A DNA stretch of 26,318 nt from NCBI GenBank assembly GCA_947623615.1, contig CANQHH010000001.1, positions 1 through 26,318 of the forward strand, in the 5' to 3' direction. Shown here piece after piece: positions 17,604 through 21,110 of the stretch. Both the position numbers and the translations under genes were made by a program. Under the pieces are notes generated by a model. That model made no database searches. It was not told where the DNA came from and worked only from the letters and a program-made list of their open reading frames with translations. Each line of letters opens with the position of its first letter. Position 1 is the stretch's first letter. Source of the stretch: an uncultured Clostridia bacterium. Lineage in GTDB: Bacteria; Bacillota; Clostridia; TANB77; CAG-508.

Positions 17604-18614
17604 TTATTTGTCATCTAATAAATATTCTTTATCTGACTGTTCTCCTACAACTTCTTCTATCTTATTAATATATGATGTATCTTTTTGTTCATCTATTGTT
17701 TCTTTTCCTAATTCTTTCGTACTTTTCTTCTTTAAATATTCTTTATAATCATATTTCTCTAGCAATTCTTCTTTTGTAACTCCATATTGACTTTCAAAGA
17801 CCTTTTGACCTTTAAATATTCTTGAATAATTTTGTGTATCAATGTCTATCCCTCTATCCTTAAAAAACATATATCTTGCATAACTTAATTCTACACTCTG
17901 CATTAACTTATTTGGATCTATAATTAATACTGAATGTAATCCTATAGAATTATAAAATTGTATTTTTTGTTTTAGATTTTCCGTACTATACCCAAATATT
18001 GTAGGTAAATGTCTTGTCATCACTATTACTTCTTCTTTACTATATCCCAATTTTATTATTTCTTCAATCTTTTGCTTCATTGTTTCAATATTTACACAAT
18101 ATACTGATGGAGATTCTCTGGTTATTTTTATTATATCTTCTATGCTATACCCTAATGCTTTCATATCTTCCATTTTTTGTTTTATGTTTTCTAAAGCTAG
18201 TCCACATATTGCTGGCGAGTTTTTTGTCATTTTTATTATATCTTCTTTACTATATCCTATTTTCTCCAATTCTTCCGACTTTTGTTTTATAGAATCTATG
18301 TTATAACTAAACAACTCTGGTAATCTTTTTGTCATCTTTATTATATCTTCCCTAGCATATCCATATTTTTCTAATTCACTTATTTTTTGCTCCATATTTT
18401 CTGTTGTATAAACATATATCGCTGGTAAATGCTTTGTCATTTTTATTATATCTTCTTTTTTATATCCTAATGATATTAAAAAATTATAATTTTCTTTAAT
18501 TTTTGCTAATAGTGTTTCTGGTTTCATTTTTCCAGTTGAATGATTATTTACTATTTTCTCTATTTGCTTATCTGTATATCCCATTTTCTTTAATGATTCT
18601 TTAAGTTCTTCCAT
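17604..18614 (-). CDS. 35-aa tandem-repeat protein, mTERF-like (N-cap + 5 repeats + C-cap)
   Basis: Repeat consensus LGYSKEDIIKMTK.LPAI..Y..ENIKQKIEE..K. C-cap KLMQSVELSYARY.F. Confidence 0.85.
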   Translation of the reverse strand: MEELKESLKKMGYTDKQIEKIVNNHSTGKMKPETLLAKIKENYNFLISLGYKKEDIIKMTKHLPAIYVYTTENMEQKISELEKYGYAREDIIKMTKRLPELFSYNIDSIKQKSEELEKIGYSKEDIIKMTKNSPAICGLALENIKQKMEDMKALGYSIEDIIKITRESPSVYCVNIETMKQKIEEIIKLGYSKEEVIVMTRHLPTIFGYSTENLKQKIQFYNSIGLHSVLIIDPNKLMQSVELSYARYMFFKDRGIDIDTQNYSRIFKGQKVFESQYGVTKEELLEKYDYKEYLKKKSTKELGKETIDEQKDTSYINKIEEVVGEQSDKEYLLDDK

Positions 18615-18626
18615 TTAGTTTTTCTC

Positions 18627-19865
18627 CTAACCACCATAAATTTGACTATTATCTTTTAGATCTTTTTCTTTTTCAAATTGTTTTTCTATTTCTCCTTCTG
18701 TATCATCTATATATCGAGTATCATCTTGCTCTTCTATGGTTTCTTCACATAATCCTTTAATATTCTTTTTTTCTAAACCTTTCTCATACGTATATTTTTT
18801 CAATAAATCTTCTTTTGTTATTTTATACTGTTTTTCAAATTTTTTCTGTCCAACAAATAATCTAGAAACATTATTTGGATTTATACTTATACCCAGACTC
18901 TCATAATATTGATATCTTGCATAACTTAATTGAATGCTTTGCATCAATTTTTTAGGATATCTAATAATCAATGAATGGCATCCTATAGAATCATAAAAAT
19001 CTACTTTTTGTTTTATATTTTCTATACTTAAACTATATATAGGTGGTAAACCTTTAGATATTTCTATTACCTCTTCTCTGCTATATCCTAAACTTTCCAT
19101 ATCTGCAATTTTCTTCTTTATATTTTCTATACTCAAACTATATAGAGATGGAAAAATTCTTGTCATATCTATGATTTCTTCTCTACTATATCCTAATGTT
19201 TCTACATCTTTAATTTTTTGTTCTATACTTTCTAGTTTATAACAGAACATTGCAGGTAATTTACTTGTCATTTTTATTATATCTTCCCTGCTATATCCTA
19301 TTCCTTCCATATATTCTATCTTTTGCTTTATATTTTCTGTACTAAATCCACATATTGCAGGCAGTCTTTTTATCATTTTTAGTACATCTTCTCTACCATA
19401 TCCCAATTTTACCATATACGAAATTTTTTGGTTCATAATTTCTTCGCTATATCCATATATTGCTGGTAAATTCTTGGTCATTTTTATCACTTCTGATTTA
19501 CTATATCCTAATTCCTCCATATATTCTATCTTTTTGCTTATATTTTCTGCACTTATACTATATATTGATGGAAAAATTTTTGTCATTTTTATTACATCAT
19601 TTCGGCTATATCCTAATCCCTCCATGTATTCTATTTTATTTTGTATATTTTCTATGCTATAATTATATAATTCTGCAATTTTCTTTGTCATTTTCATTAT
19701 ATCTTCTTTGCTATATCCTAACGATATTAAATATTTATGGTTTCTTTGGAAATTAGATAATATAGTTTCTGGCTTCATTCCAGAAAATCCATGAGCATTT
19801 ATAATTTTATTTATTTCTTCTTCAGTATATCCTAGTTCTTTAAAACTTCTATATAGCTCTTCCAT
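18627..19865 (-). CDS. 35-aa tandem-repeat protein, mTERF-like (N-cap + 7 repeats + C-cap)
   Basis: LGYS[KR].D[IV]IKMTK..P.IY..S.ENI..KIEYME recurs every 35 aa. Same caps as its neighbours. Confidence 0.87.
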   Translation of the reverse strand: MEELYRSFKELGYTEEEINKIINAHGFSGMKPETILSNFQRNHKYLISLGYSKEDIMKMTKKIAELYNYSIENIQNKIEYMEGLGYSRNDVIKMTKIFPSIYSISAENISKKIEYMEELGYSKSEVIKMTKNLPAIYGYSEEIMNQKISYMVKLGYGREDVLKMIKRLPAICGFSTENIKQKIEYMEGIGYSREDIIKMTSKLPAMFCYKLESIEQKIKDVETLGYSREEIIDMTRIFPSLYSLSIENIKKKIADMESLGYSREEVIEISKGLPPIYSLSIENIKQKVDFYDSIGCHSLIIRYPKKLMQSIQLSYARYQYYESLGISINPNNVSRLFVGQKKFEKQYKITKEDLLKKYTYEKGLEKKNIKGLCEETIEEQDDTRYIDDTEGEIEKQFEKEKDLKDNSQIYGG

Positions 19866-19874
19866 CTCATCCCC

Positions 19875-21110
19875 CTATTCATCACCTATTTGATCATCTT
19901 CATTTACTAATTTTTCTGGTTCTTCTTTTTGATTTTCAAACTCAGCTTCTGTTTCATACATATATGATGTATCTTTCTGTTCCTCCATTGTTTCCTGTGC
20001 TAATTTATAAGTATCTATTTCTCCTATATGCTCTTGATATTTGTATTTATCTAATAAGTCATTTTTTGATACTTTATACTGCTTTTCAAATGGTTTCTGA
20101 CCCATAAATAACCTAGAAAAGTTTTTCCTATCTATACTTATACCTTTATCTTTATAAAATTGATATCTAGCATAACTTACCTGTATACTCTGCATCAAAA
20201 CCCTAGGTTTTTCTGCAACCAATGAATGTAATCCTAAAGAATTAAAGAATTGTACCTTTTGTTTCATATTTTCTATACTTAATCCCAATATTGGTGGTAA
20301 AACTTTAATCATCTTTATTGATTCTTCTCTACTATATCCCAACTTTTCTACATCTTCTACCTTTTGTTTTATTGTCTCTTTAGATAATCCGAACATTGTT
20401 GGAAATGATTTAGTTATTTCAATCACATCTTCTTCATCAAATCCTAATTCTATTAAGCCATTCATTTTATTTTTTATGCTCTCTATACTCAATCCAAACA
20501 TAGATGATTTTTCCTTCGTTATTTTTATAACTTCTTCTCTGGTATATCCTAGCTCTTCTATATCTTCCAACTTTTGTTTGATGCTTTCCATACTATGACT
20601 CAATATTGAAGGTGATATTTTTATCATTTTTATAACTTCTTCTCTGGTATATCCTAGCTTCTCTATACCTTCTATTTTTTGTCTTACACTTTCTACACCA
20701 TATCCAAATATCGCTGGTAGCTTTTTTCCCATCTTTATTATGTCTCTATAACTAAGACCTAAACCTTCCATCTCCTCGATTTTTTTCTTAATATTTTCTT
20801 TAGAAGCCCCAAATAATTGTGGCGATGTTTTTATCATTTTTACAACTTCCTGCTGACTATATCCCATTTCTTTAAACTCATCTATTTTTTTATTCATGTT
20901 TTCTACACTATATACATATATAGCTGGTAAAGCTGTTGTTATTCTTATAACCTCTTCATTAGTATATCCTAATGATTTTAAATAATTAAAATTTCTTTCA
21001 AAATTCATCTTTATAGTATCACTTTTCATTCTTCTCATAGCATAAGAACCAACTATCTTATTTATCTCATCTTCGTTATATCCTAATTTTTTTAAAACAT
21101 CTCTTGGCAT
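19875..21110 (-). CDS. 35-aa tandem-repeat protein, mTERF-like (N-cap + 7 repeats + C-cap)
   Basis: Same repeat. An exact 34-nt internal duplication lies at 20521-20554 and 20626-20659 (offset 105 nt = 35 codons). Confidence 0.87.
   Translation of the reverse strand: MPRDVLKKLGYNEDEINKIVGSYAMRRMKSDTIKMNFERNFNYLKSLGYTNEEVIRITTALPAIYVYSVENMNKKIDEFKEMGYSQQEVVKMIKTSPQLFGASKENIKKKIEEMEGLGLSYRDIIKMGKKLPAIFGYGVESVRQKIEGIEKLGYTREEVIKMIKISPSILSHSMESIKQKLEDIEELGYTREEVIKITKEKSSMFGLSIESIKNKMNGLIELGFDEEDVIEITKSFPTMFGLSKETIKQKVEDVEKLGYSREESIKMIKVLPPILGLSIENMKQKVQFFNSLGLHSLVAEKPRVLMQSIQVSYARYQFYKDKGISIDRKNFSRLFMGQKPFEKQYKVSKNDLLDKYKYQEHIGEIDTYKLAQETMEEQKDTSYMYETEAEFENQKEEPEKLVNEDDQIGDE

What the first reader, a model, noticed from the sequence alone, without database searches (positions are those of the whole stretch)
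17604..21110. Tandem array of three bacterial mTERF-like 35-aa repeat genes with different repeat numbers
Seen in sequence: three adjacent, tightly spaced paralogues share N- and C-caps and carry 7, 7 and 5 copies of a 35-aa unit (LGYSREDIIKMTKxLPAIYGYSIENIKQKIExMEx). A 34-nt exact duplication at 105-nt offset shows recent repeat expansion. Established: mTERF proteins are helical-repeat nucleic-acid-binding proteins described in animal and plant organelles and are not regarded as a typical bacterial family. Inference: these could be a bacterial branch or ancestor of mTERFs, or modular DNA/RNA binders whose variable residues (around the P.I/LY.Y/L/F.S segment) might form a recognition code like TALE or PPR repeats.
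Basis: partly seen in the sequence, partly recalled or inferred. Interest (0 to 1): 0.75.

Follow-up and report, generated by a model that had tools for sequence, protein, structure and literature searches.

The report
Bacterial mTERF (pTERF) gene cassette
Three neighbouring genes of an uncultured rabbit-gut bacterium encode genuine relatives of the "mitochondrial" mTERF nucleic-acid-binding proteins, a class first reported in bacteria in 2024 (pTERF). They come with a small acidic partner protein that a model places in their presumed DNA-binding groove.

Summary
Three tightly spaced minus-strand genes (411, 412 and 336 aa) carry 7, 7 and 5 copies of a 35-aa unit between shared N- and C-caps, and the 34-nt exact duplication is real. 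The mTERF reading is confirmed: Pfam PF02536 scores 2e-69, 3e-45 and 6e-34, human MTERF1 scores 1e-11 by plain phmmer, and an AlphaFold model (pLDDT 87) matches MTERF1-DNA, MTERF3 and MTERF4.

It is not a first. Hu et al. (NAR 2024) described 35-aa-period "pTERF" proteins from gut Bacillota bins and showed that two of them bind specific DNA. This scan has also noted the same cassette in other genomes.

What I add:
- A fourth gene (132 aa, net charge -23) is a mini-mTERF. It accompanies the long genes in 52 of 66 related loci.
- In a controlled complex prediction (0.86 against 0.02) the mini sits in the concave groove. It covers the repeat positions that vary most and that align with DNA-contacting residues of MTERF1.
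- The array lies in a 7.6-kb block inserted between two genes that are adjacent in four congeners.
- The family is patchy: 13 of 200 genomes in the order and 1 of 400 in the phylum.

A TALE-like code, an ancestral role and the biological function remain untested.

The parts
19875..21110 (-). Long pTERF-type mTERF gene A (411 aa): N-cap, 7 x 35-aa repeats, C-cap, acidic disordered tail
   Evidence: ORF. Pfam mTERF 2e-69, 234 bits. AlphaFold model pLDDT 87.3 with three helices per unit. Foldseek top hits are human MTERF1-DNA complexes, E 2e-10.
18627..19865 (-). Long pTERF-type gene B (412 aa), 7 repeats
   Evidence: ORF. Pfam mTERF 2.6e-45. Repeat register.
17604..18614 (-). Long pTERF-type gene C (336 aa), 5 repeats
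   Evidence: ORF. Pfam mTERF 6.4e-34. Used as chain 1 in the complex prediction.
17128..17526 (-). Mini-mTERF gene D (132 aa, about 3.5 degenerate mTERF motifs, pI 4.05, net charge -23), the recurrent partner of the long genes
   Evidence: Pfam mTERF 1.7e-8. Charge. Homologues of 126-149 aa lie next to long genes on the same strand in 52 of 66 loci. Alignment A3. Predicted complex with C: ipSAE 0.86 against 0.02 for the best control.
16751..17098 (-). p115: small basic helical protein of unknown fold, third recurrent cassette gene in the closest clade (here it lacks the C-terminal amphipathic tail)
   Evidence: Relatives lie next to pTERF genes in 14 other loci and in a same-genus genome. Alignment A5. 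Model pLDDT 88 with no PDB match.
20521..20659 (.). The two copies of the exact 34-nt stretch (20521-20554 and 20626-20659) in repeats A4/A5, probably a short conversion tract
   Evidence: A4 and A5 are only 69% identical overall.
21111..21471 (.). 345-bp AT-rich spacer upstream of A, presumed to hold the promoter (none called), plus a 24-bp hairpin (21420-21471) at the stop of the upstream gene
   Evidence: Hairpin. Promoter-like sites are no more frequent than in shuffled sequence.
21456..23714 (-). Z752: 752-aa very acidic protein with an HEFSH zincin-like motif, a passenger of the same inserted block, found in no other pTERF locus
   Evidence: Weak SprT/DA1 hits only. Net charge -62. No relatives in 66 loci. 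Atlas search finds only hypothetical proteins.
23906..24361 (-). p151: full-length paralogue of p115 (35% identity) at the far edge of the inserted block
   Evidence: BLASTP 2e-15. Same family as the cassette-linked genes.
16751..24361 (.). The inserted accessory block of about 7.6 kb (p115, D, C, B, A, Z752, p72, p151). It lies between the CCA-type nucleotidyltransferase gene (15424-16782) and lepB (24519-25166).
   Evidence: In four same-genus genomes the CCA-type gene and lepB-holB are direct neighbours, about 180 bp apart.

Best explanation
The array is a pTERF cassette. It holds three old paralogues of a bacterial mTERF-fold solenoid protein plus a conserved acidic mini-mTERF, and in this clade a small basic helical protein as well. 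The cassette is carried in a 7.6-kb accessory block inserted into a housekeeping region of an uncultured, small-genome, AT-rich gut Bacillota bacterium. Each long protein is a superhelix of three-helix 35-aa units. Its concave face carries a conserved lysine ladder (positions 10 and 13) and the variable residues at positions 14, 17, 20, 21 and 25. Those variable positions align with DNA-contacting residues of human MTERF1. By analogy with the two pTERFs assayed by Hu et al. (2024), the long proteins most likely bind double-stranded DNA with different specificities (inferred). The mini-mTERF is predicted to dock face to face into that groove, anchored on the last repeat and the invariant LMQS/SYARY C-cap. 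Its binding would therefore exclude MTERF1-like DNA binding, so it would act as a DNA-mimic-like antagonist, chaperone or regulator of the long proteins (inferred from a model; not shown). What the cassette does for the cell is unknown. Its patchy distribution, changing genomic context, tandem amplification and strain-level changes in repeat number point to an accessory, fast-evolving role rather than a housekeeping one.
For: Family and fold:
- Pfam mTERF hits far exceed the cut-off for A, B, C and D.
- phmmer to human MTERF1 gives 1e-11 over about 250 residues.
- The AlphaFold model has pLDDT 87.3 and pTM 0.76, with a 10+5+13-residue helix pattern per unit.
- Foldseek against PDB is led by MTERF1-DNA (E 2e-10, TM 0.51/0.62), then MTERF3 and MTERF4.
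- All 30 top AFDB-SwissProt hits are mTERFs; plant MTERF4 and MTERF6 reach TM 0.64-0.77.

pTERF class:
- pTERF1 is a 35-aa-period tandem-repeat protein with Pfam mTERF motifs, from a ruminant 'Clostridia bacterium' bin.
- It has 3-11 repeats and binds ACTNNNAGTC at 1.87 nM; pTERF2 binds another motif (PMC11417379).

Variable face:
- Within-protein entropy peaks at positions 17, 14, 20, 15 and 21 in 1244 repeats of 277 proteins, and at position 14 in this window.
- In the phmmer alignment to the RFY-mutant chain, MTERF1 R162 maps to position 14, F243 and R202 to 17, R169 to 21, and Y288 and R251 to 25 (PDB titles).
- Alleles within one 90%-identity cluster have 2-6 units that differ only at positions 6, 14, 15, 17, 20, 21 and 25.

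Partner:
- A mini lies next to long genes in 52 of 66 loci, often overlapping them.
- Complex prediction of C with D: ipSAE 0.86 against a best control of 0.02. That mark was reached by 58 of 80 solved complexes and 2 of 110 mismatched pairs. Partner pLDDT is 92 and the runs agree in at least 92% of contacts.
- Contacts on C are position 14 of repeats 1-4, positions 17, 20-22 and 25 of repeats 4-5, and LMQS.
- Net charge of the interface residues is +4 on C and -12 on D.
- The conserved polar residues of D (N52, N57, N84, D88, N95, D120, N125) all lie in the interface.

Accessory status: insertion relative to four congeners, prevalence figures, and no conserved neighbours other than the cassette genes.
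Against: - No nucleic-acid binding has been measured for these proteins.
- I could not fetch the pTERF1 sequence, so direct homology to the assayed proteins is inferred from shared features, not shown.
- A, B and C are near neutral overall (pI 5.9-6.5). Their repeat regions carry almost no net charge, unlike strongly basic MTERF1.
- This window's repeats are diverged at many positions, not only at the groove positions.
- Interface residues are no more conserved than the rest in either chain (0.64 against 0.60 in D; 0.70 against 0.72 in C).
- The complex is a model's confidence with my own alignments, not a measurement. With three long genes and one mini, the stoichiometry is unexplained.
- pTERF1 and pTERF2 bound DNA without any partner.
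Confidence: 0.6

Rival explanations
1. Conflict or addiction module. The long proteins are DNA roadblocks or sensors that harm invading DNA, or the host itself. The acidic mini is their antidote or DNA mimic. The cassette would then behave like a defence or toxin-antitoxin system.
For: Patchy distribution and island location. Context changes from locus to locus. Tandem amplification to 2-5 long genes in 31 of 67 loci, with a tightly coupled small partner. Strain-level shuffling of repeats. Predicted occupation of the groove by the mini.
Against: No match to any PADLOC defence model. No nuclease or other effector domain in the cassette. No relatives on phages, plasmids or viral contigs. No mobility genes in the block. 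The long genes here are old paralogues of about 50% identity, not recent diversifications.
Confidence: 0.2
2. RNA-binding or ribosome-biogenesis factors, like MTERF3, MTERF4 and plant mTERF4/6/9. They would act on rRNA, tRNA or intron RNA of the bacterium.
For: The best global fold matches include chloroplast MTERF4 and MTERF6 (TM 0.64-0.77) and MTERF4 bound to mitoribosome intermediates. The operon ends at a CCA-adding-type nucleotidyltransferase gene.
Against: That nucleotidyltransferase gene is present without the cassette in four congeners. Most genomes of the genus and order lack any mTERF gene, which fits poorly with a core RNA-maturation role. Repeat number and groove residues vary between strains. 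The assayed pTERFs bind dsDNA (PMC11417379).
Confidence: 0.12
3. Protein-binding scaffolds. The groove's natural ligand would be the mini-mTERF or other proteins, and the family binds no nucleic acid in vivo.
For: Near-neutral charge of the solenoid. A strong predicted protein-protein interface covers the groove.
Against: Two members of the 35-aa pTERF class bind DNA at nanomolar affinity and activate a reporter in cells (PMC11417379). The conserved Lys10/Lys13 ladder and the match to MTERF1 contact positions fit a nucleic-acid groove.
Confidence: 0.08

Closest known systems
pTERF, prokaryotic mTERF-like tandem-repeat DNA-binding proteins (Hu et al., Nucleic Acids Res 2024, PMC11417379; pTERF1 = MBQ3414883.1)
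   Same: Uncultured gut Bacillota source. Tandem 35-aa period (the paper's identifier is TR_35_C32_2). Pfam mTERF motifs in the repeat region. Three helices per unit. 3-11 repeats (5, 7 and 7 here). Relatives of the window's proteins occur in the same ruminant MAG collection (RGIG bins).
   Different: The paper treats single proteins and says nothing about gene context. Here there is a tandem array of three paralogues plus a conserved acidic mini-mTERF and a third small gene. The paper calls pTERF1 a distant homologue without the conserved mTERF proline, whereas these repeats keep the proline and hit Pfam mTERF at 2e-69. The pTERF1 sequence could not be fetched, so identity to it was not measured. 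The pTERF1 motif ACTNNNAGTC does not occur in the window.
Human MTERF1 (PDB 3MVA, 3N6S, 5CKY), MTERF3 (3M66) and MTERF4 (4FP9); plant chloroplast and mitochondrial mTERFs
   Same: Same Pfam family and fold. The variable repeat positions align with MTERF1 residues that stack on flipped bases or contact bases.
   Different: Encoded on a bacterial chromosome with no targeting peptide. The repeats are regular, contiguous 35-aa units rather than degenerate interspersed motifs. There is a family-specific C-cap and an acidic tail. A dedicated mini-mTERF partner exists; no mTERF-mTERF heterodimer is known to me (from memory).
TALE, BurrH (Bat) and related repeat-code DNA binders
   Same: Helical tandem repeats of 33-35 aa wrapping a groove. 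In some relatives, near-identical units differ at a few fixed positions and are shuffled between strains.
   Different: Only weak fold similarity (E 3e-4 and worse, TM 0.25-0.30). No sequence relation. Three helices per unit rather than two. No one-repeat-one-base rule is shown. This window's units are strongly diverged.
De novo designed left-handed alpha-toroids dTor_6x35L and dTor_12x31L (PDB 4YXX, 5BYO)
   Same: A 35-residue helical unit. 4YXX is the best PDB sequence hit of protein A (5.8e-12) and a Foldseek hit.
   Different: These are closed rings designed by computation, with no biological relation. The resemblance reflects convergent, idealised repeat sequences.

Membership tests
mTERF (Pfam PF02536) | Profile score above the curated gathering threshold (23.1 bits) | tested here: met
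   A 234.4, B 155.1, C 117.7 and D 34.2 bits. The whole-genome search finds these and no other copies.
mTERF (Pfam PF02536) | Tandem three-helix motifs of about 30-35 aa forming a superhelical solenoid like solved MTERF1, MTERF3 and MTERF4 | tested here: met
   DSSP pattern of 10+5+13-residue helices per 35 aa, pLDDT 87. Foldseek: MTERF1 E 2e-10 (TM 0.51/0.62), MTERF3 8.8e-8 (TM by target 0.71), MTERF4 3.6e-6. All 30 top Swiss-Prot models are mTERFs.
mTERF (as described in the literature) | Nuclear-encoded eukaryotic protein targeted to mitochondria or plastids | tested here: not met
   The gene lies on a bacterial contig with SMC, Dus, RodA, MinDE, LepB and HolB, syntenic with congeners. The protein starts directly with the N-cap.
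mTERF (Pfam PF02536) | Binds DNA or RNA through the concave face | not testable with these tools
   Indirect only: the variable positions 14, 17, 21 and 25 align with MTERF1 R162, F243/R202, R169 and Y288/R251.
pTERF (Hu et al. 2024) | Prokaryotic origin, tandem 35-aa period, 3-11 units, Pfam mTERF motifs in the repeat region | tested here: met
   compared with PMC11417379.
pTERF (Hu et al. 2024) | Sequence homology to pTERF1 (MBQ3414883.1) or pTERF2 | tested here: inconclusive
   The record could not be retrieved. None of the named NCBI hits was that accession. Supplementary Table S11 is cut in the stored copy.
pTERF (Hu et al. 2024) | Sequence-specific dsDNA binding | not testable with these tools
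The pTERF1 motif is absent from the window, but 1.7 copies are expected by chance, so this says nothing.
TALE-like repeat-code proteins | Near-identical repeats whose differences are confined to one or two specificity residues | tested here: not met
   This window's units are 53-78% identical in DNA and vary at many positions. The pattern is met only in some relatives. Fold match to TALE is weak.
Known anti-phage defence or toxin-antitoxin systems | Match to a curated defence-system protein model | tested here: not met
   PADLOC gives no hit better than E 0.0035 for any of nine island proteins.

The most novel reading that the evidence does not exclude
The conserved acidic mini-mTERF is a dedicated DNA-mimic antagonist that plugs the DNA-binding groove of its neighbouring pTERF proteins. 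The cassette would then be a self-contained, mobile binder-plus-anti-binder module: a new kind of regulated DNA roadblock, or an addiction or defence system built entirely from mTERF repeats. mTERF-mTERF heterodimerisation would be a mode of control not known for the eukaryotic family.
Probability: 0.3. Interest if true: 0.7.

Novelty: new member of a known kind. Interest (0 to 1): 0.45.

Why it matters
Reviews of the mTERF family, including one from 2026, still state that it is absent from prokaryotes. Here the bacterial proteins are not marginal look-alikes. They match the family profile and human MTERF1 directly. They belong to a family of about 300-400 sequence clusters in gut and rumen Bacillota. 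For protein engineers, pTERFs are candidate programmable DNA binders. The natural allele series, with units shuffled and varied at positions 14, 17, 20 and 21, shows where specificity probably lies. The predicted groove-plugging partner gives a concrete, cheap experiment: does the mini displace DNA? That experiment could reveal how these binders are controlled. For evolution, the narrow and patchy bacterial distribution argues against a simple 'ancestor of organellar mTERFs' story and calls for a rooted phylogeny.

Tried and rejected
- **pTERF1 sequence.** I tried to fetch MBQ3414883.1 by looking up clusters of NCBI-sourced hits and of RGIG-bin proteins, and by a second homology search with the 8-repeat protein of L061. 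It was not found. The paper's Table S11 is cut in the stored supplement.
- **First locus search.** The search for related loci with the full-length alignment failed because no conserved stretch was found. A C-cap alignment worked.
- **Defence models.** PADLOC gave nothing.
- **Mobile elements.** No match in the phage and plasmid record collections or in IMG/VR viral contigs.
- **Expression.** No RNA holder is listed among public runs. The only holders are DNA runs of one rabbit-gut sample, probably the source.
- **Promoters.** Promoter-like sites are no more frequent than in shuffles, so no promoter is called.
- **pTERF1 motif.** ACTNNNAGTC has 0 sites against 1.7 expected, which is uninformative.
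- **p115/p151 fold.** A confident model has no match in PDB and matches only unnamed relatives in AFDB clusters. The Atlas search finds only hypothetical proteins.
- **Z752.** The Atlas search finds only hypothetical proteins.
- **Concerted evolution of repeats.** Rejected for this window: within-gene and between-gene repeat identities are equal.
- **Eukaryotic contamination.** Rejected by the bacterial gene content and synteny.
- **Plus-strand ORFs inside the array** (18014-18292, 19460-19756). These are Leu/Phe/Ser-rich mirror frames of the repeats and not genes.
- **'Mini is far more conserved than the long genes'.** Not borne out. Mean identity to the window's copy is 53% for minis, 58% for C-caps and 41% for N-caps.
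- **Rooted tree against eukaryotic mTERFs.** Not built, because no eukaryotic sequences could be drawn into the session.
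Full report
**What is there.**
The region 17604-21110 holds three minus-strand ORFs. They are A (19875-21110, 411 aa), B (18627-19865, 412 aa) and C (17604-18614, 336 aa), separated by 9 and 12 nt. Written in 35-residue register, each shows three parts:
- an N-cap;
- 7, 7 and 5 canonical units (consensus LGYSxEEVIKMTKxLPxIYGYSIENIKQKIEDMxx);
- a shared C-cap (..FYxSIGLHS..LMQS..LSYARY..GI.ID..NY..LF..QK.FE..Y) followed by an acidic tail that the model leaves disordered.

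Tandem Repeats Finder and the repeat finder recover the 105-nt period. The exact 34-nt match at a 105-nt offset is at 20521-20554 and 20626-20659. A fourth gene was missed: D (17128-17526, 132 aa), which is also mTERF by Pfam (1.7e-8).

**Is it mTERF?**
Yes, on three independent lines.
- Profile: Pfam PF02536 scores are 234, 155 and 118 bits for A, B and C against a cut-off of 23.
- Sequence: plain phmmer against PDB sequences finds human MTERF1 at 1e-11 over about 250 residues, and also MTERF3 and MTERF4.
- Fold: an AlphaFold2 model of A built on 36 homologues has pLDDT 87.3 and pTM 0.76, with a regular 10+5+13-residue three-helix pattern per unit.
- Foldseek against PDB is led by eight MTERF1-DNA entries (E about 2e-10, TM 0.51/0.62), then MTERF3 and MTERF4. 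TALE and BurrH follow far behind.
- All 30 best Swiss-Prot models are mTERFs. Chloroplast MTERF4 and MTERF6 are the best global fits, at TM 0.64-0.77.

**Is it bacterial?**
Yes. The contig carries SMC, Dus, RodA, MinDE, LepB and HolB and is syntenic with congeners. The genome is 1.27 Mb with about 26% G+C. The only public runs holding the stretch are from a rabbit-gut metagenome. A same-genus genome is labelled 'uncultured Clostridia bacterium'.

**What is already known.**
Plant-focused papers of 2022 and 2026 state that mTERFs are missing from prokaryotes. Notes from this scan pointed me to Hu et al. (Nucleic Acids Res 2024, PMC11417379), which I read.
- The paper describes pTERF, 'prokaryotic mTERF-like' tandem-repeat proteins.
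- pTERF1 (MBQ3414883.1, their TR_35 class, i.e. a 35-aa period) comes from a ruminant 'Clostridia bacterium' bin.
- pTERF1 binds ACTNNNAGTC with Kd 1.87 nM. pTERF2 binds a different motif.
- The family has 3-11 units and 46 known homologues, all from MAGs and mostly Bacillota.
- The paper says nothing about gene neighbourhood, and no later paper on pTERF is in the library.

The window's proteins share every descriptive feature of that class. I could not fetch the pTERF1 sequence, so direct identity is untested. One difference from the paper's description: these repeats keep the mTERF proline and match the family strongly, so they are not 'distant'. The scan has reported the same kind of cassette on other DNA.

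**The family and its cassette.**
- A profile of the 78-aa C-cap finds 426 clusters (292 at E<=1e-10) among 1.84 billion 50%-identity representatives.
- Scanning one genome per prokaryotic species with the C-cap gave 60 loci. Nearly all are gut or rumen bins labelled Clostridia, Bacilli, Clostridium sp. CAG:433 or CAG:524, Tenericutes/Mycoplasmatota or Erysipelotrichaceae.
- I pooled these with loci from metagenome contigs, giving 67 loci in all. Of these, 66 have at least one long gene, and 31 have two to five in tandem.
- In 52 loci a 126-149-aa mini-mTERF lies on the same strand directly beside a long gene, often overlapping it. Several loci without a mini are cut by contig ends.
- No other neighbour is conserved, with one exception. 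In the 14 loci closest to this window, and in a same-genus genome, a small basic protein related to p115 (16751-17098) and p151 (23906-24361) sits in the cassette.
- That protein gives a confident helical model with no known fold relative.
- The mini is about as conserved as the C-cap of the long genes and more conserved than their N-cap. Mean identity to the window's copies is 53%, 58% and 41%.

**Accessory status.**
- Pfam mTERF matches occur in 1 of 400 other genomes sampled across the phylum.
- They occur in 13 of 200 genomes across the order, in 7 of 32 genera.
- They occur strongly in 1 of 24 genomes of the genus.
- In four congeners the CCA-type nucleotidyltransferase gene and lepB-holB are neighbours about 180 bp apart.
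- In the window, a 7.6-kb block (p115, D, C, B, A, a 752-aa acidic zincin-like protein, a 72-aa ORF and p151) lies between them.
- There are no mobility genes in the block.
- There are no relatives on phage, plasmid or viral-contig collections.
- No defence-system model matches.

**Where the repeats vary.**
- Among this window's 19 units, G2 and K29 are invariant, and Y3, P16 and E24 nearly so. Position 14 is by far the most variable, at 3.3 bits.
- In 1244 units from 277 family members, within-protein entropy peaks at positions 17, 14, 20, 15 and 21. It also peaks at the 31-35 linker, which is inflated by the last unit merging into the cap.
- The phmmer alignment to the MTERF1 'RFY' triple-mutant chain (titles) has alanines at a constant offset of 53 at residues 162, 243 and 288. 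That fixes the numbering.
- On that numbering, R162 aligns with repeat position 14, F243 with 17 and Y288 with 25. Arginines 202, 169 and 251 align with positions 17, 21 and 25. That these arginines contact bases is from my memory of the 2010 structures.
- So the variable patch coincides with the MTERF1 DNA-contact surface.
- A related 90%-identity cluster shows natural alleles with 2, 3, 4, 5 or 6 near-identical units. They differ only at positions 6, 14, 15, 17, 20, 21 and 25, and the units appear in different orders. That is modular evolution of the kind expected for a specificity-determining array.
- In this window, however, the units are old. DNA identity is 53-78%, with the same mean within genes (64.8%) as between genes (64.3%). 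Only the first and last units are recognisably orthologous between paralogues.
- The 34-nt identity is too long to be chance at that divergence. It sits in two units that are otherwise 69% identical, so it looks like a short conversion tract rather than a recent expansion.

**The partner.**
D has pI 4.05 and net charge -23. A, B and C are near neutral, with mildly basic caps (up to +8) and acidic tails. I ran a controlled complex prediction of C with D, each supplied with an alignment.
- The score was ipSAE 0.86 in all three runs, against 0.02 for the best of three controls.
- That mark was reached by 58 of 80 solved complexes and 2 of 110 mismatched pairs in the tool's calibration. This holds only roughly here, because my own alignments were used.
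- Partner pLDDT was 92, and the runs agreed in at least 92% of contacts.
- I know of no solved mTERF-mTERF heterodimer, so recall from memory seems unlikely. That is my own knowledge.
- The confident contacts on C are position 14 of repeats 1-4, positions 10 and 13 (lysines) of repeats 1-2, positions 17, 20-22, 25 and 28 of repeats 4-5, the LMQS motif of the C-cap, and residues 267-271.
- The net charge of the interface residues is +4 on C and -12 on D.
- The conserved polar residues of the mini (N52, N57, N84, D88, N95, D120, N125) all fall in the interface.
- The model thus places an acidic mini-solenoid face to face in the groove that, by homology, should hold nucleic acid.
- Caveats: this supports binding but does not show it. 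Interface residues are not more conserved than the rest. Three long genes share one mini.

**Most likely mechanism.**
- Shown: mTERF family and fold; the cassette organisation; the insertion; the location of variability.
- Inferred from published relatives: the long proteins are sequence-specific dsDNA binders with differing specificity.
- Inferred from a model: the mini occupies their groove and so antagonises, chaperones or gates DNA binding.
- Unknown: the cellular role.

I rank an accessory regulator or roadblock function first. A conflict or addiction module comes second, an RNA or ribosome role third and a pure protein scaffold last, for the reasons given under the rivals.

**Novelty.**
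This is a new member, and a richer example, of the pTERF kind published in 2024. It is not the first bacterial mTERF, and nothing here makes it an ancestor of the organellar family. What is not in the literature I could search is:
- the conserved mini-mTERF partner and its predicted groove-plugging pose;
- the third cassette gene;
- the evidence that the cassette is an inserted, patchily distributed accessory element.

Noticed in passing
window 12629-15295 (-): An 888-aa N-terminally anchored protein has two copies of the ALK/LTK glycine-rich domain (PF12810, 3.6e-72). It lies in a stretch of 36-41% G+C against about 26% elsewhere. Congeners keep only 66-390 residues of it at the same place.
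   Followed up: partly
window 4637-4990 and 4998-5906 (-): An amidohydrolase (PF01979) is split into two ORFs in different frames. This is a frameshifted pseudogene or an assembly error.
   Followed up: no
window 7865-8221 and 8296-8961 (-): A MazF/PemK toxin gene is preceded by a 221-aa protein without Pfam match. Both are conserved in four congeners. The upstream gene is unusually large for a MazE-type antitoxin.
   Followed up: no
window 21456-23714 (-), hairpin 21420-21471: A 752-aa very acidic protein (net charge -62) has an HEFSH zincin-like motif and only weak SprT/DA1 hits. It is unique to this island among 67 pTERF loci. A 24-bp near-perfect hairpin overlaps its stop codon.
   Followed up: partly
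window 16751-17098 and 23906-24361 (-); L026-L031, L034, L036, L048, L049, L051, L052, L057, L061: The p115/p151 family is small, basic and helical, with a confident model but no PDB fold match. It recurs beside pTERF genes in the closest clade. The window's p115 lacks the C-terminal amphipathic tail that relatives have.
   Followed up: partly
proteins P0033, P0121-P0134 (one 90%-identity cluster): Natural alleles of 240, 275, 310, 345 and 380 aa carry 2-6 near-identical 35-aa units. The units differ only at positions 6, 14, 15, 17, 20, 21 and 25 and occur in different orders. This is strain-level shuffling of repeats.
   Followed up: yes
protein P0023; L020 7349-8915: A 588-aa protein fuses a cytidylate-kinase-like P-loop domain to an mTERF array. 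In another locus a separate gene of that kinase type ends 1 nt before the pTERF gene starts.
   Followed up: no
L065 6472-8674 (CP091739.1, complete MAG chromosome): Only 63-73-aa mTERF-like ORF fragments are found here. This is probably a decayed copy of the cassette.
   Followed up: no
L075, L076, L064, L079, L083: Family members lie on contigs of bins labelled Candidatus Nanosyncoccus, Muribaculaceae and Paratractidigestivibacter. This reflects either misbinning or transfer outside Bacillota.
   Followed up: no
window 15424-16782 (-): The ORF of the CCA-adding/poly(A)-polymerase-type enzyme (PolyA_pol + HD) is probably called too long. Congeners align only from residue 26-40, so the 32-nt overlap with p115 is likely not real. 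At E<=1e-20 this gene was found in only 7 of 25 same-genus genomes.
   Followed up: partly
protein A against PDB 4YXX: The best PDB sequence match of a natural bacterial protein is a computationally designed 6x35-residue left-handed toroid (5.8e-12). The idealised design has converged on the natural mTERF-like repeat.
   Followed up: no
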